Positions 162 through 34,110 of a DNA stretch of 38,206 nucleotides are shown here, one piece after another. This DNA comes from an uncultured Thermoanaerobaculia bacterium (GTDB lineage: Bacteria; Acidobacteriota; Thermoanaerobaculia; Thermoanaerobaculales; Sulfomarinibacteraceae), in assembly GCA_964408845.1 (NCBI GenBank), contig CAYPBC010000001.1:1-38206 (forward strand). Direction: 5' to 3'. The notes under the pieces were generated by a model that saw nothing but the letters and a program-made list of their open reading frames with translations, ran no database searches and was not told where the DNA came from. The position numbers and the translations under genes were made by a program. Positions within the stretch are counted from its first letter, which is position 1; the number at the start of each line of letters is the position of its first letter.

Positions 162-1265
162 TCAATCGAGGTAGCGGCCGGAGTTTGGCTTGTGGCCCGA
201 GGAATCCCCGTCAGCGCCGGTCTGGTGCTCGATGACAGGCAGTTTCCGGTCAGGATCAAGCTCCAGGAGCTCACGGCGATGATCCGCGAGAGGATTGGCG
301 CCCAGGACGCGGCCGGAGCTTTCCAGAAACGAATACATGTCGGTGCATCCGCAGCGGGTCATTGGGCAGGGCACTGGACCGGCAAAGAGCCGCGGTAGGC
401 TCTCGTCGAAAAAAGACCCGGCGACCTCGGAATGACACCCCACATGGATACGGCCTGCAGCATCCATCTGGTAGGCGATGCCGGGGAAGAGGCAACGCCG
501 GCCCCGCGGCGATTTTTTTAATGCCCGGTATTGATAGTCGACCTCCTTCGGGAGGTAGCGGCGGAGGAGAGCCAGCTCGTCGGCATCATAGTAGCCCGAG
601 GGCCCCCAGAGCGGGTTGGGGTACAGAGCGATACCCTGTTCGCGGAACAGCTTCCACCTGCGTTCAAAGTCGCTCATGTTCTCGCGGGTGAATACATAGT
701 TGACCTGTCCAATATTGAATCCCTCGGCCCGGAGAACCTCGAGCCGGCGAAGGAACCCAGACTCATCGATCTGACTCGGGTGGAATGTACACATCAGGAT
801 CAACTTCCGGCGGTCGACCTGCCGAAAGGGAAGTGGATCCCAGCGAGCGTTCGTGTCGATGCGGATGGACTCCACTCCGGCCATCGTTGTGAGTGCCACA
901 AGAAGCTTCGGCATCGACTGCCGGTCGAGCATGGGTTCGCCACCGGTGAGAACCAGAGTTGCCCTCTGATCCGAGAAGTGATTCCCAAACGCCTCGATCC
1001 AACGAGCGACCGAGTAGTTGTCGAAAGCGTGCGCCGTGAAGTGCTCGCCGAGCGGCGCATCCCGCTTATGGTTCTGGGGGCAATATGGGCAGCTGTAGTT
1101 GCACCAGCGCGTCAGCTGCCAGCGCAACAGCACCAGCCGTCTCTCCTGGGCGGGCTTCCAGATTGCCAGGAGATCCCGAAACTTCGCGCGATCCCGCCAG
1201 CTCATCCGGCGATATGGCGAGAACAGGTTCCAGAATCTCCGGCGGGTCCTCAACTGGTCAAGCAT
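162..1265 (-). CDS. Radical SAM enzyme with Cys-rich C-terminal (SPASM/twitch-like) region
   Basis: ORF 162..1727 trimmed to ATG 1265 (MLDQLRTRRRF...), because the upstream part only mirrors the neighbouring gene region. CX3CX2C motif read directly (RWCNYSCPYCPQ). GGEP-type SAM motif (LTGGEPML). C-terminal Cys cluster PCPMTRCGC. Alternative start ATG 1205. Protein ends ...SGRYLD. Confidence 0.8.
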   Translation of the reverse strand: MLDQLRTRRRFWNLFSPYRRMSWRDRAKFRDLLAIWKPAQERRLVLLRWQLTRWCNYSCPYCPQNHKRDAPLGEHFTAHAFDNYSVARWIEAFGNHFSDQRATLVLTGGEPMLDRQSMPKLLVALTTMAGVESIRIDTNARWDPLPFRQVDRRKLILMCTFHPSQIDESGFLRRLEVLRAEGFNIGQVNYVFTRENMSDFERRWKLFREQGIALYPNPLWGPSGYYDADELALLRRYLPKEVDYQYRALKKSPRGRRCLFPGIAYQMDAAGRIHVGCHSEVAGSFFDESLPRLFAGPVPCPMTRCGCTDMYSFLESSGRVLGANPLADHRRELLELDPDRKLPVIEHQTGADGDSSGHKPNSGRYLD

Positions 1266-1496
1266 GCACTGGATGATACAAGATCGCCGGCTTCCGTGGG
1301 GGGATCGAAGGTTTTGAACTTGTCCGACGGCGGTCGCCCGCGGAATGCCGCCAACAGGGGAACGGCCCGAAAACGCGAGAGTTCTGGTGACAATCGATCG
1401 ACTGAACGGCCTGTCTTGGACCCCCGAGAGAGTGGGTGTGCTACGTTGGCCGCGGGTCGGCGTGCCCTCATCCCTCAAGAGGAGATCCAACCGACA

Positions 1497-2897
1497 ATGA
1501 AAACCACAAACCGACTGGCGCTGTTTCTTTTCCTCGTTCCGGTCGTAGGTGGTGTCTGTGTCATGATCGGCTGCGGAGCTAGCGACGAGGCGGCTTTCGA
1601 CGACAAGCTGAACCTGATCATCATCTCGCTCGACACGCTGCGGGCCGACCACCTTGGATCGTATGGGTACGAGAGGAATACAAGTCCGAATATCGACCGA
1701 TTCGCAGGAGAATCGACCCTCTTTCAAAACTCGTTTTCAAACTCCAACTGGACACTCCCATCCCACATGTCCTTGATGACCTCGCTGTATCAGACCGAAC
1801 ACAATGTCGTCGGCAAGACAAACAAGCTGTCAACCAGGATTCCGACGCTCGCCGAGGTGTTGAAGCGCGAGGGATACCATACCGCGGCGTTCACTTCCGG
1901 TTACTTCGTTGACCGGAAGTTTGGATTCGACCGGGGATTCGACGTCTACCACCAGTCGTATGACTTTCAGCGTCAGAATAGTGGCCAGGGCTGGCGCCTC
2001 GAGCATCTTGAAAAAGACCTCTTCTCGTGGCTGGATACCCATAGTCAAGAGGATTTCTTTCTCTTTGTCCACAGCTACGATGTCCACGAACCGTTTATTG
2101 CGCACCAATACCTTGAGGAGTTTAGCCCGGATTACAGCGGATGGGCGACCAATCTCCACAACATGGAGAGGTTCAAAGCGAGCCCCGAGTACAAGGCTTA
2201 CGTGGAAAGCGAAGGAGTGAGATACTTCAACATCAATCTCTATTACCAAAAGGTCATCAACGCGGGTCTGATCGAACTTACCGATGCTGACCGCGACCAC
2301 CTGGTGGCCCTGTATGACAACGAGGTGCGGTTTGCAGACGAGTACTTCGGCCGCCTCCGGCAGAAGCTGGAAAGTCTCGGCCTGTGGGAGAACACGGTCA
2401 TCGTGTTGTGGTCTGATCATGGTGAGGAGCTCTTCGAGCGCGGTGGGATTCGGCATGGAGGACAGCAGCTGCACGACGAGGTACTCCGGGTACCGTTGGT
2501 GATTCGGATCCCGGGGGTTGAGCCGAAGGTCACGCCCGAACTCGCCCAGGGAATCGACATCGCACCGACCGCTCTCGATATTCTAGGTATCGCACCCGAG
2601 ACCTCGTTTGCCGGAACGTCGCTCTTCGACGAAGGCGCTTCGAACGCATTTGTGATCGCAGAAGGGAAAGACTGTGAGTGCATCCGGACAGATAAGTGGA
2701 AGCTCAGCGCCCTCAGGGATGGCCGCATTTTCGAGCTCTTCGATCTGGAAGACGATCCGGATGAGAACTCCAATCTGGTGATGAGCCGTTCCGACCAGGT
2801 GACAGAGCTGACCTCCCTGTTGAACGAGGCACTCAACCGGATGGTGACAGACGAACAGATGCGGCAACAGCTCGAAGCCCTCGGTTACCTCGATTGA
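1497..2897 (+). CDS. Sulfatase-family (alkaline phosphatase superfamily) lipoprotein, Thr-nucleophile type
   Basis: ORF 531..2897 trimmed to ATG 1497, with GAGGAG about 12 nt upstream. N-terminus MKTTNRLALFLFLVPVVGGVCVMIGC is a signal peptide with a lipobox-like IGC. Family hallmarks: IIISLDTLRADHLG, WTLPSHMSLMTSLY (Thr codon 1752-1754), VLWSDHGEEL, LRVPLVIRIPG, FELFDLEDDPDENSNL. Ends QLEALGYLD. Confidence 0.85.
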   Translation: MKTTNRLALFLFLVPVVGGVCVMIGCGASDEAAFDDKLNLIIISLDTLRADHLGSYGYERNTSPNIDRFAGESTLFQNSFSNSNWTLPSHMSLMTSLYQTEHNVVGKTNKLSTRIPTLAEVLKREGYHTAAFTSGYFVDRKFGFDRGFDVYHQSYDFQRQNSGQGWRLEHLEKDLFSWLDTHSQEDFFLFVHSYDVHEPFIAHQYLEEFSPDYSGWATNLHNMERFKASPEYKAYVESEGVRYFNINLYYQKVINAGLIELTDADRDHLVALYDNEVRFADEYFGRLRQKLESLGLWENTVIVLWSDHGEELFERGGIRHGGQQLHDEVLRVPLVIRIPGVEPKVTPELAQGIDIAPTALDILGIAPETSFAGTSLFDEGASNAFVIAEGKDCECIRTDKWKLSALRDGRIFELFDLEDDPDENSNLVMSRSDQVTELTSLLNEALNRMVTDEQMRQQLEALGYLD

Positions 2898-2980
2898 GTT
2901 GCGTAGGTGTCAGGACCCAAGTTCAGAATTTCAGGGTTGAAAGATGAGTGTCCGATAGATCCGCGTGGTTGCCTGAGGTG

Positions 2981-3847
2981 ATGATGAAACTGCTTGATCT
3001 CCTACAGCCGTCTCATTCCAGAGCGAACAAGAACATCGTGGTTTTTGGTGCCGGCCGCAGCGGGACGACATGGCTTTCCCAGATTATCGCCAGCGCCGGC
3101 CTCGAGTTCGTGTTCGAGCCTCTCAACCCGGGCGAGGTCCCGGAGGCCAAGGTCTTGAAACCGCTTCCCCTTTATTGCCGAAAGCATGATGCCTTCGAGT
3201 GGGAGGAACTGTTCACGAGGATGATAAACGGTGAGGTTCGGAATTCCTGGACCATTCGCTTGAACCCGGGCGCGGAACGGAAGGTAATCAAGTTCATCCG
3301 CGCCAACCTGCTGATTGAGTGGATCCTTCACAACTTCGACGTCCATCCAGTCTTCATCATCCGAAACCCCCTGGCCGTCGTGGCGTCGATCAAGGAACAG
3401 GGATGGGAGTTGGAGGCCGGGTGGGTTCAAGATGTCCTCACCTCACCACGCCTCAAGCAGCCGTTCTTCTCGAGGATTCCGGAGGTGTCGGAGTGGGTGT
3501 CTCGGGATCTCACTGATGCCGAGGTCAAGGCGCTCTACTGGTGCATTCATAATTACGTTCCGAGGAGACTGGGCTGTTTTAGCAAGCTCCATCTCGTGCG
3601 GTACGAGGAGCTGTGTCAGGATCCCGACAAGGTGTTCGGGACGCTGGCACCGAAGATCGGCATTGAGATGACAGAGAGCATACGGTCTGCGTTCACCAAG
3701 CCGTCGTTGATGCGCGGCAAGCGGCAGGGAAGCAAGGGTTACGACCCGAGAAGAGCCTGGAGAGACGTGCTCTCCCCGGAGGATGTCGAGGCGGTCAAGC
3801 GGATCGTCGGGGCCTTCGGGCTCGAGAGGTACATCGACGACGCCTGA
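2981..3847 (+). CDS. PAPS-dependent sulfotransferase family protein
   Basis: 5-prime PSB loop FGAGRSGTTWLSQ and 3-prime PB-like IIRNPLAVVASI read by eye. The ORF track starts at GTG 2948; ATG 2981 (MMKLLDL) is preferred because GAGG lies just upstream. No signal peptide. Confidence 0.8.
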   Translation: MMKLLDLLQPSHSRANKNIVVFGAGRSGTTWLSQIIASAGLEFVFEPLNPGEVPEAKVLKPLPLYCRKHDAFEWEELFTRMINGEVRNSWTIRLNPGAERKVIKFIRANLLIEWILHNFDVHPVFIIRNPLAVVASIKEQGWELEAGWVQDVLTSPRLKQPFFSRIPEVSEWVSRDLTDAEVKALYWCIHNYVPRRLGCFSKLHLVRYEELCQDPDKVFGTLAPKIGIEMTESIRSAFTKPSLMRGKRQGSKGYDPRRAWRDVLSPEDVEAVKRIVGAFGLERYIDDA

Positions 3848-3869
3848 TGCTCCTCCGGTGGCGGAGGCT

Positions 3870-4721
3870 TCACCACCCGTCGTCGGACTCGTAACCCAAT
3901 TCGATGAGAAGATCTCCGGCCAGTTCCTTGACGATATCCTTGGCCTCGTTGGTCGTGAGGTGGTTCCTCCAGTCTCCAACGACGCCCTTGCGGAAAAGAG
4001 GGCGGACGGTTTTCGCCCGCTCCAGGTGCTCGGCGAGAGGCCTCGGTTCGTCGGCCCCCGGCGATTGAACCAGGTCCGCGTCGGTCAGGCCGAGACCGCT
4101 GAACTCGAGAACCCGGCGCACGGTGGCCTCGAAATCCTCGATCAGGTGCTCGTACGTCAGGCGCAGATGCGGGATCTTCGCTCTTCGCAAGAGCTTTTCG
4201 CACTCCAGGGTCGCCCGGCAGTTCTTCACCGCATGCCACAGGTACGACCAGTGCCGCAGGTACTCACTATCGCCGATTTGCTCGTTTGGCTCGCTGTCCC
4301 CGAGCACCTGCTGGTGGAAGAACTGGAGCGATACGAAAATGTCTCGGGGGTCCCTGTACATGATGACGATACGGGAATCTCGAAAGACATCGTAGTACCG
4401 AGGGAAGGCGAGGACGTTGGATGGTGACTTGTCGATGAGCATCTTGAGATCGGGGTGTCGCTCCCGCTGGAGACGGTAGAGCTCTCTCAGCTTGTCGAGC
4501 GGGCTCAGCGTGGCGTTCTCTCGGACTCGAAGAAACGCGGGGTCGTCGGCCGTCCTCCGATTCCACTGCTTCTCGAGCGGGAACTCGAGAAAGAAAATGA
4601 AATCGAGCTCGCCTGGGGGGGCGAGGAAGGGCCGGACCGACAGCGCCTTGGCCAGCCAGGTGCTGCCGCATTTTCCCGGATTGAGTATGAACAGGTAATC
4701 GCAGAGGGGATCGGTCGCCAT
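3870..4721 (-). CDS. PAPS-dependent sulfotransferase family protein (second, divergent paralog)
   Basis: PSB loop LNPGKCGSTWLAKAL, DKSPSN, and 3-prime PB motif YRDPRDIFVS. Convergent with the first sulfotransferase across a 22-nt gap. No signal peptide. Confidence 0.8.
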   Translation of the reverse strand: MATDPLCDYLFILNPGKCGSTWLAKALSVRPFLAPPGELDFIFFLEFPLEKQWNRRTADDPAFLRVRENATLSPLDKLRELYRLQRERHPDLKMLIDKSPSNVLAFPRYYDVFRDSRIVIMYRDPRDIFVSLQFFHQQVLGDSEPNEQIGDSEYLRHWSYLWHAVKNCRATLECEKLLRRAKIPHLRLTYEHLIEDFEATVRRVLEFSGLGLTDADLVQSPGADEPRPLAEHLERAKTVRPLFRKGVVGDWRNHLTTNEAKDIVKELAGDLLIELGYESDDGW

Positions 4722-4830
4722 CTCTGGACCTCAGCCTTCGCCACACACCGGCCGGTGTAGATTGGAGTGCCGATCGAAGATCTCGCTCGTGGAGTCTACG
4801 CGCATCTCGAAACTTCCTCCGGCTGACATC

Positions 4831-5430
4831 TTAATCGAGGTAGTCCAGCGTCCGGAGCCGCTCCTTAGTGTCCTCGGAAAGCTCCACTTCATTTTTCTGT
4901 GTTGGCGATGAAGAAGCCTGTGGAGTAGCCGGCCTCGCTGAGGCGTTGTGCGAAGCTGGGGCGATCAGCGGGATAGGGGATCTCGAAACACCCATCGCGG
5001 TGCACCCGCGACGAGAACGAACCTTGCCGGTCAACAACTCTGATCCCCAGATCACTCCGACTCCTCCTCCCTCCAGAGATGCTGCTTTGCAGGGACCGAA
5101 CTCCAAGGGGATATTAGCACCCGAGTACGTTGCTCGATTCTCAAGATCCGCTGCTGGGAGCCTGCAGCTGCCTTCTGCCAGTGTGCCCGTCATAATTGGT
5201 GTGGAGTATCGAGGGCGCCGAGGCGCCTTCCTGCCTGTGCTTCGCGACCTAGGAATACTCTTATGTATGTTGAGGAAGCGAAGTGCAGGCAGGGTGGATG
5301 CACCGGCGACCAAATACCACTCCAGTGGTGCCGGAGTACACTACGCTCGGCGACGTCAGCAGCCATTGACACCAAACCCGGAGAGAGGGACTTCGACGTG
5401 AAAGGCGACGGCAATGTCAGCCTGGGAATG
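4831..5430 (-). pseudogene. Decayed sulfatase-family paralog (internal deletion plus frame change)
   Basis: Two frames on the minus strand match the intact paralog at 31057..34110. The tail PTQKNEVELSEDTKERLRTLDYLD-stop (4831-4902) matches AEVELSEETIEQLRTLGYLD-stop in 15/19 positions. An N-proximal piece PADRPSFAQRLSEAGYSTGFFIAN-TEK-stop (about 4889-4972, other frame) matches PRDHPSFARHLGDAGYHTGFFTAN in 16/24. The roughly 800 codons normally between these pieces are missing. Weaker remnants (SPGLVSMAADVAERSVL) lie further upstream. Confidence 0.6.
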
Positions 5431-5438
5431 AAATCACG

Positions 5439-6842
5439 ATGAAAAGGAAGAACCTCGTCCTCATCACGGTCGACGCGCTTCGCCGCGACGCTCTCGGCTG
5501 CACGGGCTCGGCGGGCGCCTCCACGCCGCACCTGGACTCGCTCGCCGAGCGGGGAATCCTCTTCGATCAGGTGATTTCGAACGGGCCCCGGACCCAAGCA
5601 TCCTTCCCCTCGATCATGTGCTCACTCTACCCCCTGGTGGCCGGCGAGCGAAAGGGCCTGCCGGCGGGCGCCGCCACCCTGGCGGAGGCGACCCGCCTCG
5701 CCGGGTACGCGACGGCCGGCTTCAACCCCTCCAACCCCTTCCTCACCCGCGAGACCGGGTACGACAGGGGCTTCGACCTGTTCATCGACTTCTGGGATGT
5801 GCACGACCGCAGGGGGTCACGGGTGAGGAAGGGACCCTGGGCTGCAGCGAAGAAGTCTCTCCATGACGCCATGGGTCGGCGAAACCTCGGCTTCCTCATG
5901 CTCTTTCAGGCCGCGGTACTGGCCGAGGGCGGTCAGTACCTCACGGGGAATCTCATCACCGAGCAGGCGCTGGCCTGGCTCGCCGACCAGAGAGCTCCCT
6001 TCTTTCTCTGGCTGCACTACATGGATGTCCACTACCCCTATCAACCCCTGCCCGGCGAGCGGACGTGGCGCGACCGGCTGTCCTATCTCCGGGGCATGGC
6101 GGGGATGTTGGGGGGACGCCGGCAACCGGCAGCGAGCGCCTTGCGCCGCCTGTACGACTGCCGGGTCGAGCTTGTCGACGGGTTCATCGGGGATTTCCTC
6201 GAGGGACTCGGAGGGTTCGGTTTCGAGAGCGACACCGTAGTCGCCGTCACCTCCGACCACGGGGAGCAGCTCGGCGAGCGCGGCCGCTGGGCGCACGGAC
6301 CCGATCTCCACGACGAGTTGCTCCGGGTCCCGCTAATCCTCCGGGATCCTGATTTGGAGTCATCCCGAGTCATCCGCGAGCAGGTGGAGCTGCTCGGCCT
6401 GGCGCCCACCCTCTTGGATCTTCTCCAGATCGAGGCTCCAGAGACCTTCCTGGGATCGAGCTTTCTGCCCCTGCTGCGCGGGGACTCAGCCGCCGGTGCC
6501 GCCCACGTCTTCAGCGAGGCGATGCACGGCGGCGCACGGCTGAGCCGGACCGGGGTTCCGGACACTCACCGCATCGTCTCCTGCCGCGGGCGCAGCTGGA
6601 AGTACATCCGGGACGACGAGGGTCCGAGCGAGGAGCTTTATGACCTCGAACGCGACCCGGGCGAGCGCACCAACCTCGTCGGCGAGCAGCCGCAGAAGGC
6701 CGGCGAGTTTCGCGGTTTGGTGGAGGACCATGATTCCCTGGTGGTTCGCGAGGCCGCCAGGTACGAGCAGGACGGGGAACGGCCGATGACGACCGACGAC
6801 GAGGAGATGCGGAGGCGCCTCGCGGCTCTAGGGTACCTGTAA
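5439..6842 (+). CDS. Sulfatase-family (alkaline phosphatase superfamily) protein, no signal peptide
   Basis: Starts directly with the catalytic core MKRKNLVLITVDALRRDALG. Nucleophile segment PRTQASFPSIMCSLYP (Thr codon 5592-5594). VAVTSDHGEQLGE, LLRVPLILRDP, ELYDLERDPGERTNLV. Ends RRLAALGYL. Confidence 0.85.
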   Translation: MKRKNLVLITVDALRRDALGCTGSAGASTPHLDSLAERGILFDQVISNGPRTQASFPSIMCSLYPLVAGERKGLPAGAATLAEATRLAGYATAGFNPSNPFLTRETGYDRGFDLFIDFWDVHDRRGSRVRKGPWAAAKKSLHDAMGRRNLGFLMLFQAAVLAEGGQYLTGNLITEQALAWLADQRAPFFLWLHYMDVHYPYQPLPGERTWRDRLSYLRGMAGMLGGRRQPAASALRRLYDCRVELVDGFIGDFLEGLGGFGFESDTVVAVTSDHGEQLGERGRWAHGPDLHDELLRVPLILRDPDLESSRVIREQVELLGLAPTLLDLLQIEAPETFLGSSFLPLLRGDSAAGAAHVFSEAMHGGARLSRTGVPDTHRIVSCRGRSWKYIRDDEGPSEELYDLERDPGERTNLVGEQPQKAGEFRGLVEDHDSLVVREAARYEQDGERPMTTDDEEMRRRLAALGYL

Positions 6843-6889: not shown

Positions 6890-7960
6890 ATGACGAGCGA
6901 AATCCAGCCTCTCTCAGAATGGTTTCCGGTGGACGATCCGGCGCCGTGGGTGATCGCGGGGCCATGCAGTGCCGAGTCAAGGCAGCAGGTGTTGTCCACC
7001 GCCCGCCAGATTGCCGAAGTCCCCCACGTCAGGGTATTTCGGGCCGGTCTTTGGAAGCCTCGAACACGCCCGGACTCTTTTCAGGGGGTGGGGGAAGCCG
7101 GGCTGGGTTGGCTGCAGGCGGTCAAAGAGGAGACATCGCTGAAGGTCACCACCGAAGTGGCTTGCGCCAAGCATGTGGAGCTGTGTCTGGAGGGTGGCAT
7201 AGACGTTCTCTGGGTTGGAGCGAGAACGACGGTGAACCCGTTCCTTGTACAGGAGATCGCTAACGCGTTGAGGGGCTGTGACCTGCCGGTGATGGTCAAG
7301 AATCCTGTCAGCTCGGAGCTGGGCCTGTGGCTCGGAGCAATAGAGCGGATGTACCAGGCCGGAATAAGGAAGATCGTCGCCATCCACCGGGGGTTTTCGG
7401 TTTACCACGAGACCCAATACCGGAACCAACCAAACTGGCAAATCCCCATTGAACTGAAACGCCGGCTCCCGAATCTCCCTCTGGTCTGTGACCCGAGCCA
7501 TATCGCCGGTGATCGGAAGCTCGTGGGACAAGTTGCTCAAATGGCTCTGGATCTGGGAATTTATGGTCTCATGATCGAGACTCACTGTGATCCTGATCGA
7601 GCCCTGAGCGACGCGAAACAACAGATTACCCCTGAATCGCTGTCGACGTTGCTGCGGACTTTGCGGGTGAGAAAGGCCGGAACCGGTGATCGGCCGCCCG
7701 ACGCCGACATCGCGCGGATTCGATCGTTGATTGATGAAGTGGACCGCCGGATTATTCTCGATTTAGCGGAGCGCCTGAGTCTGGTTGAGGATATTGGCCG
7801 GATCAAGCGCCAGCATCACATTCCGGTATTGCAACTCCACCGGTGGGAAGACCTTCTGGAAGACCACTTGGCGCGCGCCAGGGAAATGGGCCTTGACTCC
7901 CAGTTCATCAAGGCGGTGTTCGAACTTATCCATGCCAAGGCGGTCGAAATGCAGCTTTAA
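6890..7960 (+). CDS. Bifunctional 3-deoxy-7-phosphoheptulonate (DAHP) synthase type I-beta / chorismate mutase
   Basis: N-terminal VIAGPCSAES...VFRAGLWKPRTRPDSFQGVG...CDPSH pattern of the DAHPS/KDO8PS I-beta family. The C-terminal ~90 aa (IARIRSLIDEVDRRIILDLAERLSLVEDIGRIKRQHHIPVLQLHRWEDLL) look like an AroQ-type chorismate mutase. Confidence 0.85.
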   Translation: MTSEIQPLSEWFPVDDPAPWVIAGPCSAESRQQVLSTARQIAEVPHVRVFRAGLWKPRTRPDSFQGVGEAGLGWLQAVKEETSLKVTTEVACAKHVELCLEGGIDVLWVGARTTVNPFLVQEIANALRGCDLPVMVKNPVSSELGLWLGAIERMYQAGIRKIVAIHRGFSVYHETQYRNQPNWQIPIELKRRLPNLPLVCDPSHIAGDRKLVGQVAQMALDLGIYGLMIETHCDPDRALSDAKQQITPESLSTLLRTLRVRKAGTGDRPPDADIARIRSLIDEVDRRIILDLAERLSLVEDIGRIKRQHHIPVLQLHRWEDLLEDHLARAREMGLDSQFIKAVFELIHAKAVEMQL

Positions 7961-9427: not shown

Positions 9428-10717
9428 TTGAAGGTACTCCTCATTTCATCTGCTACGCCCGAACACAGGATCGAGGGCGGTATCGTGACGCACCTGGCCC
9501 TTCTCAAACGGGATCTGTCGAGTCGAGGTCACAGCGTTCACACGTTGACAGCAATCCCCGCTGGTGCGAGCGAAGCGCCGTCGAGCGGGTCTATCTCCTA
9601 TGTCGGTCCTGCCCTCCGTGACGGTGTTCCCTTCAGCTATCATCTCAGCCTGGTGGGCGCCTACACGCGGCTGCGCTCGACTTTCTCTCCCGACGTAGTC
9701 CACATTCATTCCCACTCCGGCACGGCGATTGCGATGAAGGAGCGGCGGATTCCGATCGTGACGACGGTGCACGCAGCCAATCCACCGGATATCAACCTCG
9801 CGGAAGGCCGGCTGACTAGTCTCTACAGAACTGCGGAAAGTACGGTAAAGCGTCGGCAGATCTCGGCCCTCCTGAAATGCTCGGACAGGGTCTTTGTGCC
9901 GAGCGCGAAGACGGCTCGCGACCTGAGGCGGCTCTGTCCCCAACTCGATCTTGGTGATCTGGAAATTCTGCCGGTCGGCATCGACCTGCATCGGTTTCGG
10001 CCGATTGACAAGGCGGATGCCAAGGCTCGTCTCGGTTTCGCAGGGCATTTCGTATTCCTCTTCGTGGGAAGAATGACCAGAAAAAAGGGCGCCGATGACC
10101 TCGTCCAAGCCGCTCCAGAAGTCCTTATCGAAATCGAGGATGCGATCTTCGTCATTGTCGGTACGGGTCCCGTGCGAGAGGAGCTCATGAGGGAAGCTTT
10201 TCGCCTGGGGGTCTCTGATCGTTTCCATTTCATCGGGGCTGTGCCGAACAGCGAGCTGCCCGCCTACTACAGCGCTGCCGATGTATTCGTCAACCCCACG
10301 CGGGAGAACGAGACCTTCGGATTGACGACGGTCGAAGCGATGGCTTGCGGATTGCCCGTGATCATCTCGCACTCGGGCGCAGAAACTGGAATCGCGTCGC
10401 CGCGAGAGGCCAGGTTATTTGACGGTCGCGATGAGTTGATTTCAAACATGAAAGAGCTTTGGGCAGATGAGGGACTGCGGGATGCGCTGGCAGCCAGAGG
10501 ACGTGACAAGGTGAAGCAATTCTCGTTTGACCGGGTGGCCGGGCGCCTCAACGACAGTTACCTGGATTTGATCACGGCTGGAAAAACTTCCTCGGCCGCA
10601 ACCGCTGACCGGGGCTGGGGTTCGTTCTGGTGTGCAAACATGGCTGATGGGGGAATCCGTTGGCTGCGGCGGACGCGGAACCGTGTTTCAGGCTATGGGG
10701 AGAGCAAAACCAAATGA
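9428..10717 (+). CDS. GT4-family glycosyltransferase
   Basis: TTG start giving (M)KVLLISSA. GRMTRKKGADDLVQA and FVNPTRENETFGLTTVEAMACGLPVI (EX7E region). The stop overlaps the next start as ATGA. Confidence 0.85.
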   Translation: MKVLLISSATPEHRIEGGIVTHLALLKRDLSSRGHSVHTLTAIPAGASEAPSSGSISYVGPALRDGVPFSYHLSLVGAYTRLRSTFSPDVVHIHSHSGTAIAMKERRIPIVTTVHAANPPDINLAEGRLTSLYRTAESTVKRRQISALLKCSDRVFVPSAKTARDLRRLCPQLDLGDLEILPVGIDLHRFRPIDKADAKARLGFAGHFVFLFVGRMTRKKGADDLVQAAPEVLIEIEDAIFVIVGTGPVREELMREAFRLGVSDRFHFIGAVPNSELPAYYSAADVFVNPTRENETFGLTTVEAMACGLPVIISHSGAETGIASPREARLFDGRDELISNMKELWADEGLRDALAARGRDKVKQFSFDRVAGRLNDSYLDLITAGKTSSAATADRGWGSFWCANMADGGIRWLRRTRNRVSGYGESKTK

Positions 10718-11667
10718 ATCAGATCGACAGCTTGAGCCTCACGTTGTCGGCTGTTTGCAGCGCCGACTGCGTTTTCTGCCCGAGGCCCCACGCCCGGAAA
10801 CATCAGCCACCTTTCATGCCGCCGGACCTCGTCGGGAAGATTCTGGACGAGTCCGCGGTCTACGACATCGTTTCTATCGATGTTGGCGAGAATGGTGATT
10901 CCTTCCTGAATCCACAGGTATTGGAGATCTTGCGCCTCATTCGGTCCAAGAGCCAGGCGATGGTCAGGATGTTCACCAACTTTCGCACCTTCAAGCCGGA
11001 CTTGATCGATGCGGTGCTTCAAGAGGGCCTTCTTGACAAGGTGATCACCAATATTGATGGGGCGACACCGGAGGCTTATCGAGCCGTCAAGGGCCTCGAA
11101 TTGGAACGTGTGGAGCCTAATATCCAGCATTTTCTGGCTCGCAAAGAGGCGCTCCGGAGCCCGACGGAATTTCGCATCCAGGCCCTCACTCTCCATCACT
11201 ACGTTGACACGGTAAGGCGGGTTCTCGGCCGAGATCCGATTCACGTTCCCGACCATCTGGTGGATTCGATCGATGATTTTGACCAGATTGTGGAGCGTTG
11301 GCGGTCTCGGGGCGTCGTTCCGGAGCGTTCGGTCGTCACTCTGTGGGTTGAAGGCCAGGATCCAGGCAGGGAGCGGACCTCCCTTCGGCAGGTTGCTCGA
11401 CGGATTCAGCGCCGCGTCTTTCCGAGATCTTGCCGGATGTTGGACAAGATCGAACGTGGGCTGTTCGTAGCACCGTCGGGCCAGGTCTATCTCTGCTGCG
11501 CGGATTTCGAGTTCGAGATCATTCTTGGAGATCTGAGACAACAGACCGTGCGGGAGGTCGTGGAAAGCGAAAGAAGACGAGAGATTCTGAAGGCGTTGAC
11601 GCGCAGTGAGTTTCACAAGATCGGGGGTCCGTGCAATACCCCTGAAATGTGCAGAATCTACCTGTGA
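10714..11667 (+). CDS. Radical SAM enzyme with SPASM/twitch-like C-terminus
   Basis: ORF 10660..11667 trimmed to ATG 10714, which overlaps the upstream TGA (ATGA). CX3CX2C read as SAVCSADCVFCPR. C-terminal Cys pattern: GQVYLCCADFEFEIILGDL ... GGPCNTPEMC. Confidence 0.8.
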   Translation: MNQIDSLSLTLSAVCSADCVFCPRPHARKHQPPFMPPDLVGKILDESAVYDIVSIDVGENGDSFLNPQVLEILRLIRSKSQAMVRMFTNFRTFKPDLIDAVLQEGLLDKVITNIDGATPEAYRAVKGLELERVEPNIQHFLARKEALRSPTEFRIQALTLHHYVDTVRRVLGRDPIHVPDHLVDSIDDFDQIVERWRSRGVVPERSVVTLWVEGQDPGRERTSLRQVARRIQRRVFPRSCRMLDKIERGLFVAPSGQVYLCCADFEFEIILGDLRQQTVREVVESERRREILKALTRSEFHKIGGPCNTPEMCRIYL

Positions 11668-13245: not shown

Positions 13246-14457
13246 TCAACCAGGTAATCCGCTGCTCATTCGTTGGCAGGCCGTCAGATCCCCGCTGTCC
13301 CAGGCGAAGCGGACCCTGAACCCGTCCTCCTCGAGCATGAAGGCCGCCCCCTCCAAGTTCTGCTTGAACACTGGAAACTGAGGTTTGCCCTGTGCGGGCT
13401 TCGAGTAGCCTCCGGGAGCGGTGCAGCACGTCAGGGTCAGCACCACCCCCCCTCCGTAGGTGTTGATCAGATGCCGGTTGAACTCGAAAGTCTCGCGGGT
13501 CTGCAGCCAAAGTGCTCCGTCGAAAAGCACCCTGTCGAGGGCGATGTTCAGCTCGTACTCCTCGTCGGACACTGCGTGCTCCCTGATCGTCATCGAGCCC
13601 AGGAAGCGACCCTTGACCCGTGGGCTGCCGATGATCGAGAAACCTCGTCCCCACCGCGATTTCAGGTACTGGTCGAAGAGATAGAGGATCACCTCCTCCT
13701 TGCGCCAGTCATGAAGCCCCTTCAGAAATGCTCCGGCGACATGCTCGATACCCGCCTCTTTGGCTCGGTCGAAAGAGTCCAACCTGAAGCTCTGGTTTCC
13801 TTTCGGGCCGGTGTTCACGTGGAGCCGGGAGTACTGGCCGGGGTCGAAGGTCTCGAGCCAGGCCAGAAAGCAGTCGAGGCCTGAGGCCTTTAACTCCTCG
13901 AACCCCGGCGTGCAGACTGGCGGGATGTTGCTGGTGATCATCCCGCCGCCCACGTCGGCGAGCTGCCCACCGAGGATTTCGAAATACCGCGCGGTGTTGG
14001 CGACGTCAAAGCGTTGGTCGTCCGGGTCAGTAGAATCCTCGCGAACGAAGAGTTCCGGATCCTGGCTGCTCACCAGCTCGATGCTGCGGTAACCCATCCC
14101 GAGGAGCGCATCCACCTCCTCGCGAAACTCCGCGTGGTTCAGGCGCAGGCCGTTGCCCGTTGAGAAATCGCAGTAGGAGCACTTGTTCTCGCAGATGCTC
14201 GACAAATAGAGGGGCGGCAGGAGCAGGATGTCGTCCTCACGAGGTCTCGCATACCCCTTTGAAAAATCCAGCACCGTGCGCGCGTTAGCGGGTTTAGACA
14301 GGCCGTTCAGCAACGAAACGATCTCCTGGCCGTCGAGGCTCTCGCGGTTGCCCGCCTTCTCCAGCAACTCGAGCGTCTCCCGCTCGCCGATCGGGGTACT
14401 CGAGCCGACCTGTGCGGCCTGCTCGACGAATCCTGGGAATACCTCGCTGAATAACAA
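13246..14457 (-). CDS. ThiH/HydG-family radical SAM enzyme (aromatic amino acid lyase-like)
   Basis: PPLYLSSICENKCSYCDFS matches the ThiH/HydG PLYLSNxCxNxCxYCGF cluster region. The C-terminal TAPGGYSKP...QFPV... resembles ThiH TQPGGY...EQF. TTG start at 14457 with GGAG 6 nt upstream; there is no in-frame ATG in the first ~120 codons. Confidence 0.75.
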   Translation of the reverse strand: MLFSEVFPGFVEQAAQVGSSTPIGERETLELLEKAGNRESLDGQEIVSLLNGLSKPANARTVLDFSKGYARPREDDILLLPPLYLSSICENKCSYCDFSTGNGLRLNHAEFREEVDALLGMGYRSIELVSSQDPELFVREDSTDPDDQRFDVANTARYFEILGGQLADVGGGMITSNIPPVCTPGFEELKASGLDCFLAWLETFDPGQYSRLHVNTGPKGNQSFRLDSFDRAKEAGIEHVAGAFLKGLHDWRKEEVILYLFDQYLKSRWGRGFSIIGSPRVKGRFLGSMTIREHAVSDEEYELNIALDRVLFDGALWLQTRETFEFNRHLINTYGGGVVLTLTCCTAPGGYSKPAQGKPQFPVFKQNLEGAAFMLEEDGFRVRFAWDSGDLTACQRMSSGLPG

Positions 14458-31056: not shown

Positions 31057-34000
31057 TCAGTCGAGGTAGCCGAGGGTTCGAAGCTGCTCGATGGTCTCCT
31101 CCGACAGCTCGACCTCGGCCGCTTTGTCTCGCTGGCCCCAGGAGTCGCTGGAGGCCAGCAGCGCTGCGAGATGCCCATGGAGCCGGGTGAACACCTCCGG
31201 GCGGGTGTGAACGAGGTTTCGTCTCTGCTCCGGGTCCTCGTCGAGATCCACCAGAACGCACTGCGAGGGATCGGAGCGTTTCAGATCTAGGAAGTCGGTC
31301 GTGCAGAGGGGAAGATCCGCAACGCGGTGGTTCCCAAGGTCCGCTTTGACTACCTCTCTCCCCTCGTCGTTCCCGGTTGTGACCACAAAGGGTCCGCGGC
31401 TGTTCGAGTAAAGGCTGGGCCACCTCTCTGCCAGGCGAAGCTTGAGCGAGAGGCCCACGGTCCCCGGCTCGAGCTCGAGGCGAATCGTCTCCACAACCGC
31501 CTCCCCCATCTCCCAGGCGTGGGTCGGCCGCTGCTCGCCGCCGACAAACCACCACAGCCACCGCTCGGTCCGCTCCCCCGAGGTCGGGACCATCGAGGCG
31601 GCGAGCTTGCCCGAGAAGGTGTGGGAGGAGGCAGCCTCGGCCTCCCAGTACAGCGTCAGGTAGACGCAGGAATCGCCACGGCACAGATCGAAGCCGGTGA
31701 GCGACACCAGATCGCCGAACCGGGTCAGTCTGGCATGCACCGGAGTCAACAGCGCCAGATCGGTGGCAGCATCTCGCTCACCGAGATCGGTGAGCTCGGT
31801 GAGAGCAGAGGGGTGGAATGGAGTCTTTTGTACGCAGTTTCGGAGAAGCTCCCGTCGCTCGCCCTCGGTCCGGGCGATCTGAGCCAGGAGGAAGTCCAGA
31901 TGTCCCTGGCTGGGAAAGCGTTTCGCCAGCGCTTCAAGCGCCGGGCGCTCGCTGGGCCCGGCGTGGAAACCGGGCGGCAGCCGCAAACTCTCGATCCCGA
32001 GCTGGTCACGTTTGTGGGCCAGAAGACTCTCGGACCGGGACCCGCAAACCTCGAGGGTGGTCATGGGAACCGGATCCACGGCCGTGACGACTCGCTTCCA
32101 CCAGAAGAGCTTCGAGTGGTCCAGCAGGCCGACCTGCACCCGGTGGGCTCCTCGGCACGACGAGGCCGGCACGGTCCACCAGAACGAGTCCTCGAAGTCG
32201 AGTGATCCGTGGGAGAAGGTCGTGTCCTCGATCTTGGAGTCCTCGACGAGAGGCTGAGGCTCGGCCCCTTTCTCCAGGACACGACGAAAAAAGGTCCTGG
32301 CCTCGCTGATCGTCACCCGGTTCTGCGGGTCGACCAGCTCGACGAGGATGCCGACCTCCTTACCGACATTGCGGTGGGCGCGCCAGTGGAGAGTGATGTA
32401 GACCGCGTCGCCGGGACAGGCCACCGGAGGCTCTGCCGTGACCGCCAGGATCTCCAGAACATCACTCAACCGCCGGGGGTTCTCCACGGGCGCGGTCAGC
32501 ACTCCGAGCCAGCCGGTCTCCGGAGGTCCGGACCCTGTGCCGGTCCATCCGGCACCCTCCACGATCAGTCGCTTGGCTGCCCTCTCCTCGGAGACCGTTA
32601 TCTCACCTTCGAACTCCCCACCAGAGAAGGTGCCGAGGGAGACCACCGACGTCGCGGTCGTCCGGACGCGGAGAGCCAGCCGTCCCGTCTCGTCGTCGGT
32701 GCGCAAGGTTCCGGAAAATCGAAGCTTCGACCCGGGGGTCACCAGGCGGCGGTGGAGGGCGAAATTCTCCAAAACCACACCGTCGCAGATCTTAAGGCGC
32801 CGACGCAGGGCGCCCGGAGGCACCGGCAGTGGCGTCCCGGCGACGGTGGAGGCCGCCGACTCCGCCGATCGGACCTCCATGAGGTGTCCACTGCCGAAGC
32901 GGGCCCCACCGTTGTAAATCAACCGCCATTGACCCGACGTCAGCGCCCAAGCGCTCTCGGACCTTTCCAGGCCTTCCTGGCTTACCACCACCCTCTCCGG
33001 AGACCCCTCTCCAAGGAGGGACTCGTTCATCATCCCAAAACGCACTGGCCCGCCCGCCAGCTCGAGAATCGTGGGGCCGAGATCGAGATGTGAAACGGGT
33101 CGCGTCATCGTGACCGGACCGGTTGACTCGGTGTCGTGGAGGATGAGCGGTACGTGCAGGATCTCGTCGCTCAGGATCATCCCGTGATCGCACATCAGTC
33201 CGTGTTCACCCAAGCCCTCGCCGTGATCGCTAGTCACGATGAAAACCGTGCGACGGCTCCCCCGAATTTCCAGCCATCTCGCGAAGAAGCCTGCAGCCAG
33301 AGAATCGGCGTAGGCGATATTCGCCTCGTACCGCTGTTGGTAATCGAGGAGATCGACTCCGAGCCCCACCTTCGCCTGATACCAGGGGATCCTCCCGAGA
33401 ACACCGGCCGCCAGGGAGACCCTCGCCCCATCGCGGTCGTGGTGGGCGAGGTGGCCGGCGACCGGCATCGGCCGGCCTTTTGCCTGCCGAAGGAACCGAT
33501 CCGGCGCCTTATATGGTCCGTGGGGCGGCCAGTAATGGATATAGACGAAGGCAGGCCGGGGGCCGCCCAGGGACCTCACCCAGGCCATGCAGTCGTCGGT
33601 CAAACGAGGGCCGAAATCACTGTCCTTGGCGGCCTCAATGGACACATGATCAAAGTGCTCCTCCATGCCGAAACCTTCGCCGATGGCAGGGTTCGCCGTG
33701 AAGAAGCCGGTGTGATAGCCGGCATCACCGAGGTGACGCGCAAAGCTGGGGTGATCGCGCGGGAAGGCCTTGTTGATTCGCCATCCGCGGTGTTCGAGGG
33801 GCGGAAGCCCGGTGAGAATGCTGGTGACTGACGGTCGGGTCCAGGTGGCTGCCGAATGGCAGCGGTTGAACAGGGTGGACCGCGCGGCGAGATCGGAGAG
33901 GAACGGCGCCGTGTCCCACTGATGCCCGTAGAACGGCAGCGACCGCGCGCGCAGGGAGTCGAGAACGAGGAGCACGATGTCGGGACGACCGTCACCGGGA

Positions 34001-34110
34001 GGAAGATCTCCGAATCTCCCACACCCGGCCAGGCCGAGGCCCAGCGCGGAGACACCCAGACCTTGGAGGAAGCCGCGACGGGAGAACTCTGTGCCAGGAT
34101 TACCTTTCAC
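31057..34110 (-). CDS. Large Tat-exported lipoprotein: sulfatase-family (Thr-nucleophile) catalytic domain with ~540-aa nested insertion
   Basis: GTG start with GGAG upstream. SRRGFLQGLGVSALGLGLAGC is a twin-arginine motif plus lipobox. IVLLVLDSLRARSL, ATWTRPSVTSILTGL (Thr codon 33838-33840), VTSDHGEGLGEHG, LHVPLILHD. The canonical end LVDLDEDPEQRRNLV...EQLRTLGYLD is separated from the core by an insertion at about 31278-32898. Confidence 0.8.
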   Translation of the reverse strand: MKGNPGTEFSRRGFLQGLGVSALGLGLAGCGRFGDLPPGDGRPDIVLLVLDSLRARSLPFYGHQWDTAPFLSDLAARSTLFNRCHSAATWTRPSVTSILTGLPPLEHRGWRINKAFPRDHPSFARHLGDAGYHTGFFTANPAIGEGFGMEEHFDHVSIEAAKDSDFGPRLTDDCMAWVRSLGGPRPAFVYIHYWPPHGPYKAPDRFLRQAKGRPMPVAGHLAHHDRDGARVSLAAGVLGRIPWYQAKVGLGVDLLDYQQRYEANIAYADSLAAGFFARWLEIRGSRRTVFIVTSDHGEGLGEHGLMCDHGMILSDEILHVPLILHDTESTGPVTMTRPVSHLDLGPTILELAGGPVRFGMMNESLLGEGSPERVVVSQEGLERSESAWALTSGQWRLIYNGGARFGSGHLMEVRSAESAASTVAGTPLPVPPGALRRRLKICDGVVLENFALHRRLVTPGSKLRFSGTLRTDDETGRLALRVRTTATSVVSLGTFSGGEFEGEITVSEERAAKRLIVEGAGWTGTGSGPPETGWLGVLTAPVENPRRLSDVLEILAVTAEPPVACPGDAVYITLHWRAHRNVGKEVGILVELVDPQNRVTISEARTFFRRVLEKGAEPQPLVEDSKIEDTTFSHGSLDFEDSFWWTVPASSCRGAHRVQVGLLDHSKLFWWKRVVTAVDPVPMTTLEVCGSRSESLLAHKRDQLGIESLRLPPGFHAGPSERPALEALAKRFPSQGHLDFLLAQIARTEGERRELLRNCVQKTPFHPSALTELTDLGERDAATDLALLTPVHARLTRFGDLVSLTGFDLCRGDSCVYLTLYWEAEAASSHTFSGKLAASMVPTSGERTERWLWWFVGGEQRPTHAWEMGEAVVETIRLELEPGTVGLSLKLRLAERWPSLYSNSRGPFVVTTGNDEGREVVKADLGNHRVADLPLCTTDFLDLKRSDPSQCVLVDLDEDPEQRRNLVHTRPEVFTRLHGHLAALLASSDSWGQRDKAAEVELSEETIEQLRTLGYLD

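What the first reader, a model, noticed from the sequence alone, without database searches (positions are those of the whole stretch)
162..6842. Recurrent extreme C-terminal ...L-x-x-LGYL(D)-COOH tail on five ORFs, including a radical SAM enzyme
Protein ends read directly from the sequence are as follows. 1497..2897 ends QQLEALGYLD and 5439..6842 ends RRLAALGYL. 31057..34110 (outside this range) ends EQLRTLGYLD, and the pseudogene tail at 4831 ends ERLRTLDYLD. The divergently encoded radical SAM protein 162..1265 ends NSGRYLD. The codons differ between copies (for example GGG TAC CTG versus GGT TAC CTC GAT), so conservation is at the protein level. The three enzymes differ in predicted localisation (Sec lipoprotein, no signal peptide, Tat lipoprotein), so this is not an obvious sorting signal. 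A Tyr-containing free C-terminus next to several radical SAM/SPASM enzymes recalls systems where such enzymes act on C-terminal Tyr motifs. That link is pure speculation. A docking or PDZ-type recognition tag is an alternative.
Basis: seen in the sequence. Interest (0 to 1): 0.6.

Follow-up and report, generated by a model that had tools for sequence, protein, structure and literature searches.

The report
Conserved "LGY" C-terminal helix tail
Three sulfatase-like enzymes and one gene relic in this sugar-coat gene cluster end in the same short capped helix (…L-x-x-L-G-Y-L-x), a widespread and apparently undescribed protein-protein contact tag; the radical SAM enzyme's similar-looking ending is coincidence.

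Summary
The tail is real, but it is neither local to this window nor linked to radical SAM enzymes.

- **Enrichment.** L-x-x-L-G-Y-[LIVM] lies 0-1 residue from a stop 12 times in this genome, against 0.04 expected.
- **Carriers here.** Ten of 12 sulfatase-like ORFs carry it, as do two ASST-like beta-propeller proteins and a 64-aa RHH-like protein.
- **Enzyme type.** The carriers have a threonine nucleophile (W-T-L-P-S-H). They are not formylglycine sulfatases and need no maturase.
- **Conservation.**
  - About 100 of 120 sulfatase-like homologs have the tail.
  - 118 of 120 ASST-like homologs have it.
  - 110 of 150 small-protein relatives have it.
  - It also occurs in named genomes of many bacterial phyla and of Archaea.
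  - Its Gly and Tyr are as invariant as the catalytic residues.
- **Radical SAM.** The "RYLD" ending is absent from all 120 homologs. That enzyme family was found in 0 of 150 sampled genomes of the phylum, while 87 of them have tails.
- **ORF at 4831.** It is a collapsed relic of a P0004-like gene, with the invariant Gly changed to Asp.
- **Form.** The tail is a capped 11-13-residue helix that AlphaFold2 does not dock in monomer models of two unrelated folds.
- **Reading.** An intermolecular packing or docking helix is most likely. The partner is unknown.

This scan met the same tail before on other DNA, and I found no paper describing it. Interest is moderate.

The parts
1497..2897 (+). P0002, Sec-lipoprotein, Thr-nucleophile sulfatase-fold enzyme; tail helix and cap at 2835-2894 (...TDEQMRQQLEALGYLD)
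   Evidence: Pfam PF00884 E 1.3e-51; tail-profile hit 28 bits; AF2 helix 453-462, tail pLDDT about 72 against >95 for the core; T86, G463 and Y464 invariant
5439..6842 (+). P0003, cytoplasmic Thr-nucleophile sulfatase-fold enzyme; tail at 6795-6839 (...DDEEMRRRLAALGYL, no residue after GYL)
   Evidence: Pfam PF00884 E 4.6e-44; tail-profile hit; the ortholog in the closest relative ends identically...RRRLAALGYL
31057..34110 (-). P0004, Tat-lipoprotein, 1017-aa Thr-type sulfatase-fold enzyme with a large unassigned segment between the Pfam sulfatase match (aa 43-353) and the C-terminal element; tail at 31060-31116 (...LSEETIEQLRTLGYLD)
   Evidence: Pfam PF00884 E 3.9e-38; best tail-profile hit in the genome, 33.5 bits
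4834..5002 (-). Collapsed relic of a P0004-like gene: one piece matching aa 107-140 (5002-4901) abuts a piece matching aa 987-1017 (4917-4834) in another frame; tail ...SEDTKERLRTLDYLD has the invariant Gly changed to Asp
   Evidence: tblastn 53% identity over 34 aa, E 1e-7, and 58% over 31 aa, E 2e-5; blastn 75% over 56 nt with the P0004 3' end; tail-profile hit 19.2 bits

Best explanation
The tail is a small self-contained structural unit. It starts with a hydrophobic residue, then an N-cap (D/S/T) and an acidic first turn. Three helical turns follow, carrying an L..L[KR][AS]L stripe. The helix stops at an invariant Gly in a pattern that matches a Schellman C-cap (L-x-x-L-G-Y). After the cap come an invariant Tyr, one aliphatic residue and usually one polar residue before the stop. 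It is the hallmark ending of a very large, uncharacterised clade of threonine-nucleophile alkaline-phosphatase-superfamily enzymes that databases call sulfatases. The same unit has been copied onto unrelated proteins of the same envelope-glycan loci: ASST-like sulfotransferases, NPP-type phosphodiesterases and a tiny RHH-like protein. I infer that it works as an intermolecular packing helix. Its hydrophobic face and the Gly-Tyr-aliphatic hook would bury against another subunit, either the same enzyme or another member of the set, most plausibly an AlkP-fold core. This would assemble homo- or hetero-oligomers on either side of the membrane. Shown here: the sequence pattern, its conservation, its portability across folds, its presence in both compartments, and its independence from radical SAM enzymes and from the DUF106-like cassette protein. 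Inferred: that the contact is intermolecular, and what it binds.
For: Enrichment is 12 terminal copies against 0.04 expected. The tail is on 10 of 12 sulfatase-like ORFs, 2 ASST-like proteins and 1 RHH-like protein. G463 and Y464 are among only 19 invariant columns, alongside catalytic D46, T86, D307 and H308. The tail is conserved in about 100 of 120 sulfatase-like homologs, 118 of 120 ASST-like homologs and 110 of 150 small-protein representatives. It lies within 20 residues of the stop in 67 of 80 loci from named genomes, including Archaea. In the phylum sample 88 of 151 genomes carry it, with up to 40 copies each. The column profile shows N-cap D/S/T in 38 of 50 sequences, L at -7 and -4 in 48 of 50, and G, Y and an aliphatic residue in 50 of 50. 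AF2 predicts a helix at pLDDT about 70 on two unrelated, otherwise confident folds, and the invariant GYIQ of the ASST-like protein falls below 50, so the monomer offers no contact that would explain the invariance. Carriers are both cytoplasmic (P0003, the RHH-like protein) and exported or anchored (11 of 13), which favours a partner that travels with the protein. The small tailed gene starts 6 nt after a tail-less NPP-type enzyme gene, and read-through gene calls elsewhere confirm that gene order.
Against: No structure or complex was available. The tools gave no model coordinates and no multimer prediction, so the intermolecular contact is unproven. In the P0002 subfamily only about 5 residues separate the last helix of the domain from the tail helix, which would also suit a simple intramolecular helical hairpin. 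A pLDDT near 70 is not proof of non-docking. The near-constant placement one residue before the stop is not explained by an oligomerisation helix alone.
Confidence: 0.45

Rival explanations
1. The tail is a docking peptide for a dedicated receptor or scaffold, most plausibly a TPR protein. It would resemble C-terminal peptides bound by TPR domains (Hsp70/Hsp90 EEVD, PTS1-PEX5).
For: It is portable across at least four folds. Its position next to the C-terminus is nearly fixed. TPR arrays are fused directly after the motif in both AlkP branches: NPP-type C126 and L044 and sulfatase-type L111.
Against: The one specific candidate tested, the DUF106/EMC3-like membrane protein of the small-protein cassette, is missing from 45 of 88 tail-positive genomes, including those with 20-40 tails. 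A single receptor would have to act in both cytoplasm and periplasm. The TPR fusions may only mean that the tail marks the end of the enzyme module.
Confidence: 0.2
2. The tail is purely an intramolecular element: the last helix of the enzyme packs back on its own C-terminal subdomain and stabilises it.
For: It always follows the conserved LYDL..DP.E..N element and last helix at a short, quantised distance of 35-51 residues. Internal copies at domain boundaries behave like an end-of-module element.
Against: AF2 gives it much lower confidence than the body on two folds despite deep conservation. S1 sulfatases of known structure align only up to the preceding helix.
Confidence: 0.15
3. The tail is a C-terminal degradation or processing tag read by a protease or adaptor.
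For: It is terminal, short, portable and on proteins of many families, as with ssrA-type tags.
Against: It is a capped helix ending in a polar residue, not a non-polar unstructured end. It occurs in both compartments. Internal copies exist. Constitutive tagging of dozens of enzymes per genome has no obvious rationale.
Confidence: 0.05
4. The invariant Tyr is a modification site or tethered pseudo-substrate: sulfated, phosphorylated or cross-linked by the neighbouring sulfotransferases or radical SAM enzymes.
For: Tyr is invariant. Sulfotransferase genes lie between the tailed genes (2948-4721) and next to the C55 cassette. All carrier folds nominally handle aryl sulfate or phosphate esters.
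Against: The P0001-type radical SAM was found in 0 of 150 other genomes against 87 with tails and is not adjacent in the closest relative. Its own YLD ending is not conserved. The residue before Tyr is Gly, not acidic. The locus context is glycan biosynthesis. Nothing here tests modification directly.
Confidence: 0.04
5. The tail is a membrane-binding amphipathic helix or an envelope sorting signal.
For: All carriers act at or near the membrane, and the bilayer is present on both sides.
Against: Mean net charge of the last 20 residues is -0.7 plus the carboxylate, mean hydrophobicity is -0.29 and the hydrophobic moment is 0.43. No hydrophobic span or basic cluster follows the motif. It occurs on cytoplasmic proteins and on proteins that already have Sec, Tat or lipoprotein signals.
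Confidence: 0.04

Closest known systems
C-terminal oligomerisation extensions of alkaline-phosphatase-superfamily sulfatases and phosphonate monoester hydrolases (choline sulfatase 6FNY/6G5Z, PMH 2VQR/2W8S/4UPH)
   Same: Same fold: Foldseek E about 1e-25 to these entries. From my own knowledge, a C-terminal segment beyond the catalytic core is used there for subunit contacts. An earlier follow-up in this scan drew the same parallel.
   Different: Those enzymes have the Cys/Ser-x-Pro-x-Arg formylglycine motif and long, family-specific extensions. Their sequence alignments stop before the tail. None carries the L-x-x-L-G-Y-aliphatic-x ending.
Short C-terminal docking peptides on tethers: chemoreceptor NWETF, SSB DDDIPF, Hsp70/90 EEVD-TPR, PTS1-PEX5
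   Same: It is short, sits next to the C-terminus, often follows an acidic or variable linker, and is portable between protein families.
   Different: Those peptides are unstructured and depend on the free carboxylate and a known receptor. This tail is a capped helix, tolerates internal placement, and has no known receptor. The comparison rests on general knowledge and was not tested here.
Helix-Gly-aromatic caps of the UBA domain (MGF/Y loop), POTRA helix 1 (TamA) and ribosomal protein eS17
   Same: These were the only PDB sequences that resemble the tail profile (e.g. TamA ...REGLKALGY, eS17 ...DMLKSLGY, RAD23 UBA). They show that helix-Gly-aromatic is a common helix stop that presents a hydrophobic contact patch.
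   Different: All E-values are non-significant (0.016 or worse). Those motifs are embedded in larger folds, and homology is not implied.
Anaerobic sulfatase-maturating enzymes (radical SAM/SPASM, anSME/AtsB/ChuR) with their sulfatase substrates
   Same: A radical SAM gene lies divergently next to a sulfatase-fold gene (162-1265 and 1497-2897).
   Different: The substrate motif is absent: Thr replaces Cys/Ser and His replaces Arg. The radical SAM best matches the STM4011 family, below its cutoff. The pairing is not conserved.

Membership tests
Alkaline-phosphatase superfamily, sulfatase fold (Pfam PF00884) | Sequence and fold match to the sulfatase-type AlkP core, with conserved metal-ligand Asp/His residues | tested here: met
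   PF00884 E 1.3e-51, 4.6e-44 and 3.9e-38. The AF2 model matches S1 sulfatases and PMHs at E about 1e-26. D46, D307 and H308 are invariant.
S1 formylglycine-dependent sulfatases | Cys/Ser-x-Pro/Ala-x-Arg motif providing the formylglycine nucleophile | tested here: not met
   The aligned column is Thr in 127 of 129 family members (W-T-L-P-S-H). Only the tail-less C234 protein has C-S-P-A-R.
Substrates of radical SAM/SPASM maturases (anSME-type or RiPP-type C-terminal Tyr modification) | Conserved co-occurrence or adjacency of the maturase with its substrate, and a conserved target motif shared by the set | tested here: not met
   The P0001 family was found in 0 of 150 other genomes against tails in 87. 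It is not adjacent in the closest relative. None of the 120 radical SAM homologs has the ending.
PDZ-type or carboxylate-dependent C-terminal ligands | The motif must be at the free C-terminus | tested here: inconclusive
   The motif is within 0-3 residues of the stop in most cases. It also occurs with 5-20-residue extensions and internally before TPR arrays. Position 0 is polar and variable.
C-terminal envelope sorting signals (PEP-CTERM, LPXTG, GlyGly-CTERM and similar) | Signature motif followed by a hydrophobic span and basic cluster, on exported proteins only | tested here: not met
   At most a few polar residues follow the motif. Carriers include cytoplasmic P0003 and the RHH-like protein.
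Membrane-targeting amphipathic helices (MinD/FtsA type) | Net positive charge with high hydrophobicity and hydrophobic moment | tested here: not met
   Net charge -0.7, mean hydrophobicity -0.29, hydrophobic moment 0.43 over 50 tails.
'LGY tail' carriers as defined by this scan (undescribed in the literature searched) | An N-capped helix of about 12 residues ending L-[KR]-x-L-G-Y-[LIVM]-x at or next to the C-terminus, conserved in orthologs | tested here: met
   P0002, P0003 and P0004 score 17-33.5 bits on the 20-column tail profile. Their orthologs keep the tails. The relic scores 19.2 bits with a G-to-D change. The radical SAM does not match.

The most novel reading that the evidence does not exclude
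The LGY tail is a universal assembly tag. It would bring Thr-type AlkP enzymes, ASST-like sulfotransferases, a tiny RHH-like adaptor and transporters together into multi-enzyme machines that decorate envelope glycans or lipids. It would do this through a conserved receptor surface, either the AlkP core itself or a TPR scaffold, on both sides of the membrane and in both Bacteria and Archaea.
Probability: 0.2. Interest if true: 0.7.

Novelty: new variant of a known kind. Interest (0 to 1): 0.45.

Why it matters
Thr-type "sulfatase-like hydrolase/transferase" genes are among the commonest unannotated enzymes in the surface-polysaccharide loci of environmental bacteria. Some genomes sampled here carry 20-40 tailed copies. 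A motif as invariant as the catalytic residues, shared with unrelated enzymes of the same loci, is a concrete experimental handle. A synthetic tail peptide could fish out partners, and tail mutants could test whether these enzymes work as complexes. For annotation, the tail separates this clade from true formylglycine sulfatases, which it is routinely confused with. For this window, the result removes a tempting but false link between the tails and the neighbouring radical SAM enzymes.

Tried and rejected
1. Radical SAM membership was rejected: 0 of 120 homologs have the ending and the family was not found in 150 other genomes of the phylum.
2. The DUF106/EMC3-like cassette membrane protein was rejected as a general receptor: all 43 cassette-positive genomes have tails, which is trivial because the cassette contains a tailed protein, but 45 tail-positive genomes lack it, including the richest.
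3. The membrane-helix reading was rejected on charge and hydrophobicity.
4. I looked for a solved structure containing the tail, using both the tail profile and the small protein. Only non-significant look-alikes came back.
5. Literature searches for the motif strings and for descriptions of such a tail found nothing relevant; one further query was rejected for syntax.
6. The apparent fusions of the small tailed protein to longer proteins (P0378, P0373, P0503) turned out to be read-through or frameshift gene calls. They confirm gene order only.
7. The structure tool returns no coordinates, so I could not measure contacts of the tail and had to rely on pLDDT and secondary structure.
8. I considered comparing the last residue of the tail between genomes as a test for a co-evolving receptor. 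I dropped it because base composition would confound it.


Full report
**1. The observation**

The last ten codons differ synonymously between copies, with Gly as GGT/GGG/GGC and Leu as CTC/CTA/CTG. The conservation is therefore in the protein.

I laid the whole genome in the script box. It has 2.6 Mb in 465 contigs, is 70% complete, and the window is contig C1. I listed all stop-to-stop ORFs. The pattern L..LGY[LIVM] occurs 16 times, and 12 of those end 0 or 1 residue before a stop. From amino-acid composition, 0.042 such endings are expected among 23,706 terminated ORFs. The recurrence is real and genome-wide, not a peculiarity of this window.

**2. Who carries the tail**

In this genome:
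- Ten of the 12 sulfatase-like ORFs carry it: three in the window, plus C7, C11, C22, C26, C144, C197 and C261.
- The one canonical sulfatase, C234, has C-S-P-A-R at the nucleophile site and lacks the tail.
- The carriers have Thr there. In an alignment of 129 family members the column is Thr in 127 (W-T-L-P-S-H), Ser in one and gapped in one.
- These are therefore Thr-nucleophile alkaline-phosphatase-superfamily enzymes. They are not formylglycine sulfatases and have no residue for a sulfatase maturase to act on.

Outside the sulfatase fold, the tail ends several other proteins:
- Two adjacent ASST-like beta-propeller proteins on C22. They match PF05935 and PF14269 above cutoff, and the best PDB fold match is the ASST-type sulfotransferase Cpz4, 9kf4.
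- A 64-aa RHH-like protein on C55.
- An internal copy on C126, just before a linker and a TPR array.

By their N-termini, 11 of the 13 carriers are lipoproteins, Tat or Sec substrates, or signal-anchored. Two are cytoplasmic: P0003 and the small protein.

**3. Conservation elsewhere**

- Of the 120 best homologs of P0002 (32-100% identity), about 100 end in L-[KR]-x-L-G-Y-[LIV]-x, mostly with exactly one residue after the aliphatic position. A few have short acidic extensions or a further domain.
- In a 66-sequence alignment, G463 and Y464 are among only 19 invariant columns, together with catalytic D46, T86, D307 and H308.
- The ASST-like family keeps the tail in 118 of 120 homologs, as ...LREQQLKALGYV[NQ].
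- The small protein has 320 representatives in the 1.84-billion-protein library at E up to 0.001. Of the best 150, 110 end in the tail, and most of the rest look like frameshifted or truncated gene calls.
- A 20-column profile of the tail recovers every copy in the genome. Across the phylum sample it finds the tail in 88 of 151 genomes, with up to 40 copies per genome and about 800 matches in all.
- I fetched 40 of those matches. Of the 39 distinct ORFs (two were identical), about 31 carriers are sulfatase-type, 4 are NPP-type (PF01663) and one is the small protein. The rest are fragments.
- Among 80 loci from named genomes, the tail lies within 0-3 residues of the stop in 58 and within 4-20 in 9. 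These genomes include Acidobacteriota, Planctomycetota, Myxococcota, Nitrospirales, Spirochaetales, Patescibacteria, Altiarchaeota and Nitrosopumilus.
- One of these loci is the same contig as G119, a genome listed as the same class as the window's genome. By inference, the window comes from the Thermoanaerobaculia (Acidobacteriota).

**4. The two doubtful members**

*The radical SAM protein P0001.* It shares only Y-L-D with the set.
- None of its 120 homologs ends in Y-[LIVM]-x or holds LxxLGY, and a 96%-identical ortholog stops eleven residues earlier.
- Its family was found in none of the other 150 sampled genomes of the phylum.
- It is not adjacent to the P0002 ortholog in the closest relative. 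That locus keeps both tails letter for letter.
- Its ending is coincidence.

*The ORF at 4831-5313.* It is a relic.
- tblastn places P0004 residues 107-140 at 5002-4901 and residues 987-1017 at 4917-4834, in different frames.
- The invariant Gly is replaced by Asp.

**5. Context**

The window is a surface-polysaccharide locus. It holds:
- three GT4 and two GT2 glycosyltransferases;
- a Wzx-type flippase and an ABC-2 exporter pair;
- a pyruvyl transferase and methyltransferases;
- two sulfotransferases and a PhoD-like protein;
- five genes with radical SAM domains, counting P0001; one has a SPASM domain and one a B12-binding domain.

The radical SAM genes are best read as glycan-tailoring enzymes of this locus.

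**6. Anatomy of the tail**

The column profile is as follows, numbering back from the last residue as 0.

| Position | Residue(s) | Frequency in 50 tails |
|---|---|---|
| -15 | Leu | 28 |
| -14 | Asp/Ser/Thr (N-cap) | 38 |
| -13, -12 | acidic | common |
| -7 | Leu | 48 |
| -6 | Arg/Lys | 46 |
| -5 | Ala/Ser | 44 |
| -4 | Leu | 48 |
| -3 | Gly | 50 |
| -2 | Tyr | 50 |
| -1 | Leu/Ile/Val/Met | 50 |
| 0 | polar | variable |

From textbook helix-capping rules, this reads as a hydrophobic staple and capping box, three helical turns, and a Schellman C-cap in which Gly stops the helix and Tyr folds back towards the Leu three residues before the cap.

AlphaFold2 with family alignments agrees on a helix:
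- P0002: residues 453-462, mean model pLDDT 91.7.
- ASST-like protein: residues 548-560, mean model pLDDT 87.8.

In both models the tail scores only about 70 while the core scores above 90. The invariant G-Y-I-Q of the ASST-like protein falls below 50. The monomer therefore offers no confident contact that would account for the invariance. The tool gives no coordinates, so I could not measure contacts.

The tail follows the conserved ...DP.E..N element and last helix of the domain at 35-51 residues, in discrete classes.

**7. Mechanism**

The constraints are these. The unit is portable across at least four unrelated folds. It works in cytoplasm and periplasm. It tolerates internal placement and short extensions. 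It is not explained by monomer contacts. It is net acidic and not hydrophobic enough for a membrane helix.

The most economical reading is an intermolecular packing helix whose partner travels with it. That partner would be the same protein, or another member of the enzyme set, most plausibly the AlkP-fold core.

One arrangement supports tail supply in trans. On C55 the small tailed gene starts 6 nt after a tail-less, membrane-anchored NPP-type enzyme gene, and a membrane protein gene follows. Earlier notes of this scan report the same cassette in other genomes and call that membrane protein DUF106/EMC3-like. Pfam gave it no hit here. Read-through gene calls in the public library confirm the gene order.

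I tested that membrane protein as a general receptor and it fails. It is present in 43 of 151 genomes, all tail-positive, but 45 tail-positive genomes lack it, including those with 20-40 tails.

One lead remains open. TPR arrays are fused directly after the motif in both AlkP branches: C126 and G061:C60 (NPP-type, the latter also with an SPFH domain) and L111 (sulfatase-type). A TPR scaffold is the best candidate if a dedicated receptor exists.

My weights for the readings:

| Reading | Weight |
|---|---|
| Oligomerisation or packing helix | about 0.45 |
| Dedicated receptor | 0.2 |
| Purely intramolecular cap | 0.15 |
| Degron | 0.05 or less |
| Tyr modification | 0.05 or less |
| Membrane helix or sorting signal | 0.05 or less |

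**8. Comparison with what is known**

The fold is that of S1 sulfatases and phosphonate monoester hydrolases. The defining formylglycine motif is not met, so these are not members of that family.

No PDB chain carries the tail. The tail profile only picks up non-significant helix-Gly-aromatic caps: the UBA MGF/Y loop, TamA POTRA1 and eS17. Full-text searches for the motif strings and for descriptions of such a tail returned nothing relevant.

The scan itself has met the tail repeatedly on other DNA. Earlier follow-ups reached similar conclusions: a portable, undescribed docking or packing helix with an unknown partner.

- the ASST-like carrier family;
- the rejection of the radical SAM link and of the DUF106-like receptor;
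- the capping anatomy;
- the phylum-wide copy counts;
- the recurrent TPR fusions.

**9. Verdict**

The feature is real, strongly conserved and apparently undescribed, but it is not new to this scan and its function is still inferred. Interest is moderate.

Noticed in passing
window 4834-5002 (-): A collapsed pseudogene lies between the sulfotransferase gene and P0003. Two short pieces homologous to the N-terminal part and the extreme C-terminus of P0004 abut in different frames, so nearly the whole gene has been deleted.
   Followed up: yes
window 31057-34110 (-), roughly P0004 residues 400-940: P0004 has about 550-600 residues with no Pfam match between the sulfatase-domain match (aa 43-353) and the C-terminal DLDEDPEQRRNL element and tail.
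   Followed up: no
G000 contig C55, 794-4801: A conserved cassette is present in this genome too: a divergent sulfotransferase, a membrane-anchored tail-less NPP-type enzyme (N-terminal AYIGPGAGF anchor), the 64-aa RHH-like tailed protein starting 6 nt after it, then a 280-aa membrane protein. Earlier notes call that membrane protein DUF106/EMC3-like; Pfam gave no hit here. It occurs in 43 of 151 sampled genomes of the phylum.
   Followed up: partly
G000 contig C126 2-718; L044 (G061:C60); L111: The architecture 'AlkP-type enzyme, LKALGYIG(D/E)D or LKSLGYIW, linker, long TPR array' recurs in both NPP-type and sulfatase-type branches. L044 also has an N-terminal SPFH/Band-7 domain.
   Followed up: partly
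window 162-1265 (-) and 1497-2897 (+): The radical SAM P0001 best matches NCBIfam STM4011 (84.9 bits, below the 200-bit cutoff). P0002 and P0004 weakly match the STM4013/SEN3800 hydrolase model. This hints at a distant parallel to that uncharacterised Salmonella gene set, but the pairing is not conserved in relatives.
   Followed up: partly
window 10660-11667, 13246-14457, 21727-23601, 23598-24329: Four further radical SAM-domain ORFs lie in one polysaccharide locus, one with SPASM and one with a B12-binding domain. Also present are an 813-aa PhoD-like protein (19289-21730) and a 678-aa ORF with no Pfam match (27685-29721).
   Followed up: no
window 6890-7960 (+): A DAHP synthase fused to a chorismate mutase type II domain lies directly downstream of P0003. 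It looks unrelated to the glycan locus.
   Followed up: no
P0370 (library representative, 113 aa): This protein is a tandem duplication of the RHH-like module in one chain. Only the second copy keeps the LGY tail; the first is cut just before it.
   Followed up: no
G055:C6 8742-8798 and 92678-92734 (L023, L024): Two identical 115-aa ORFs ending in the tail (...SEETLEALRALGYIR) lie 84 kb apart on one contig. They have no recognisable upstream domain and may be duplicated gene fragments.
   Followed up: no
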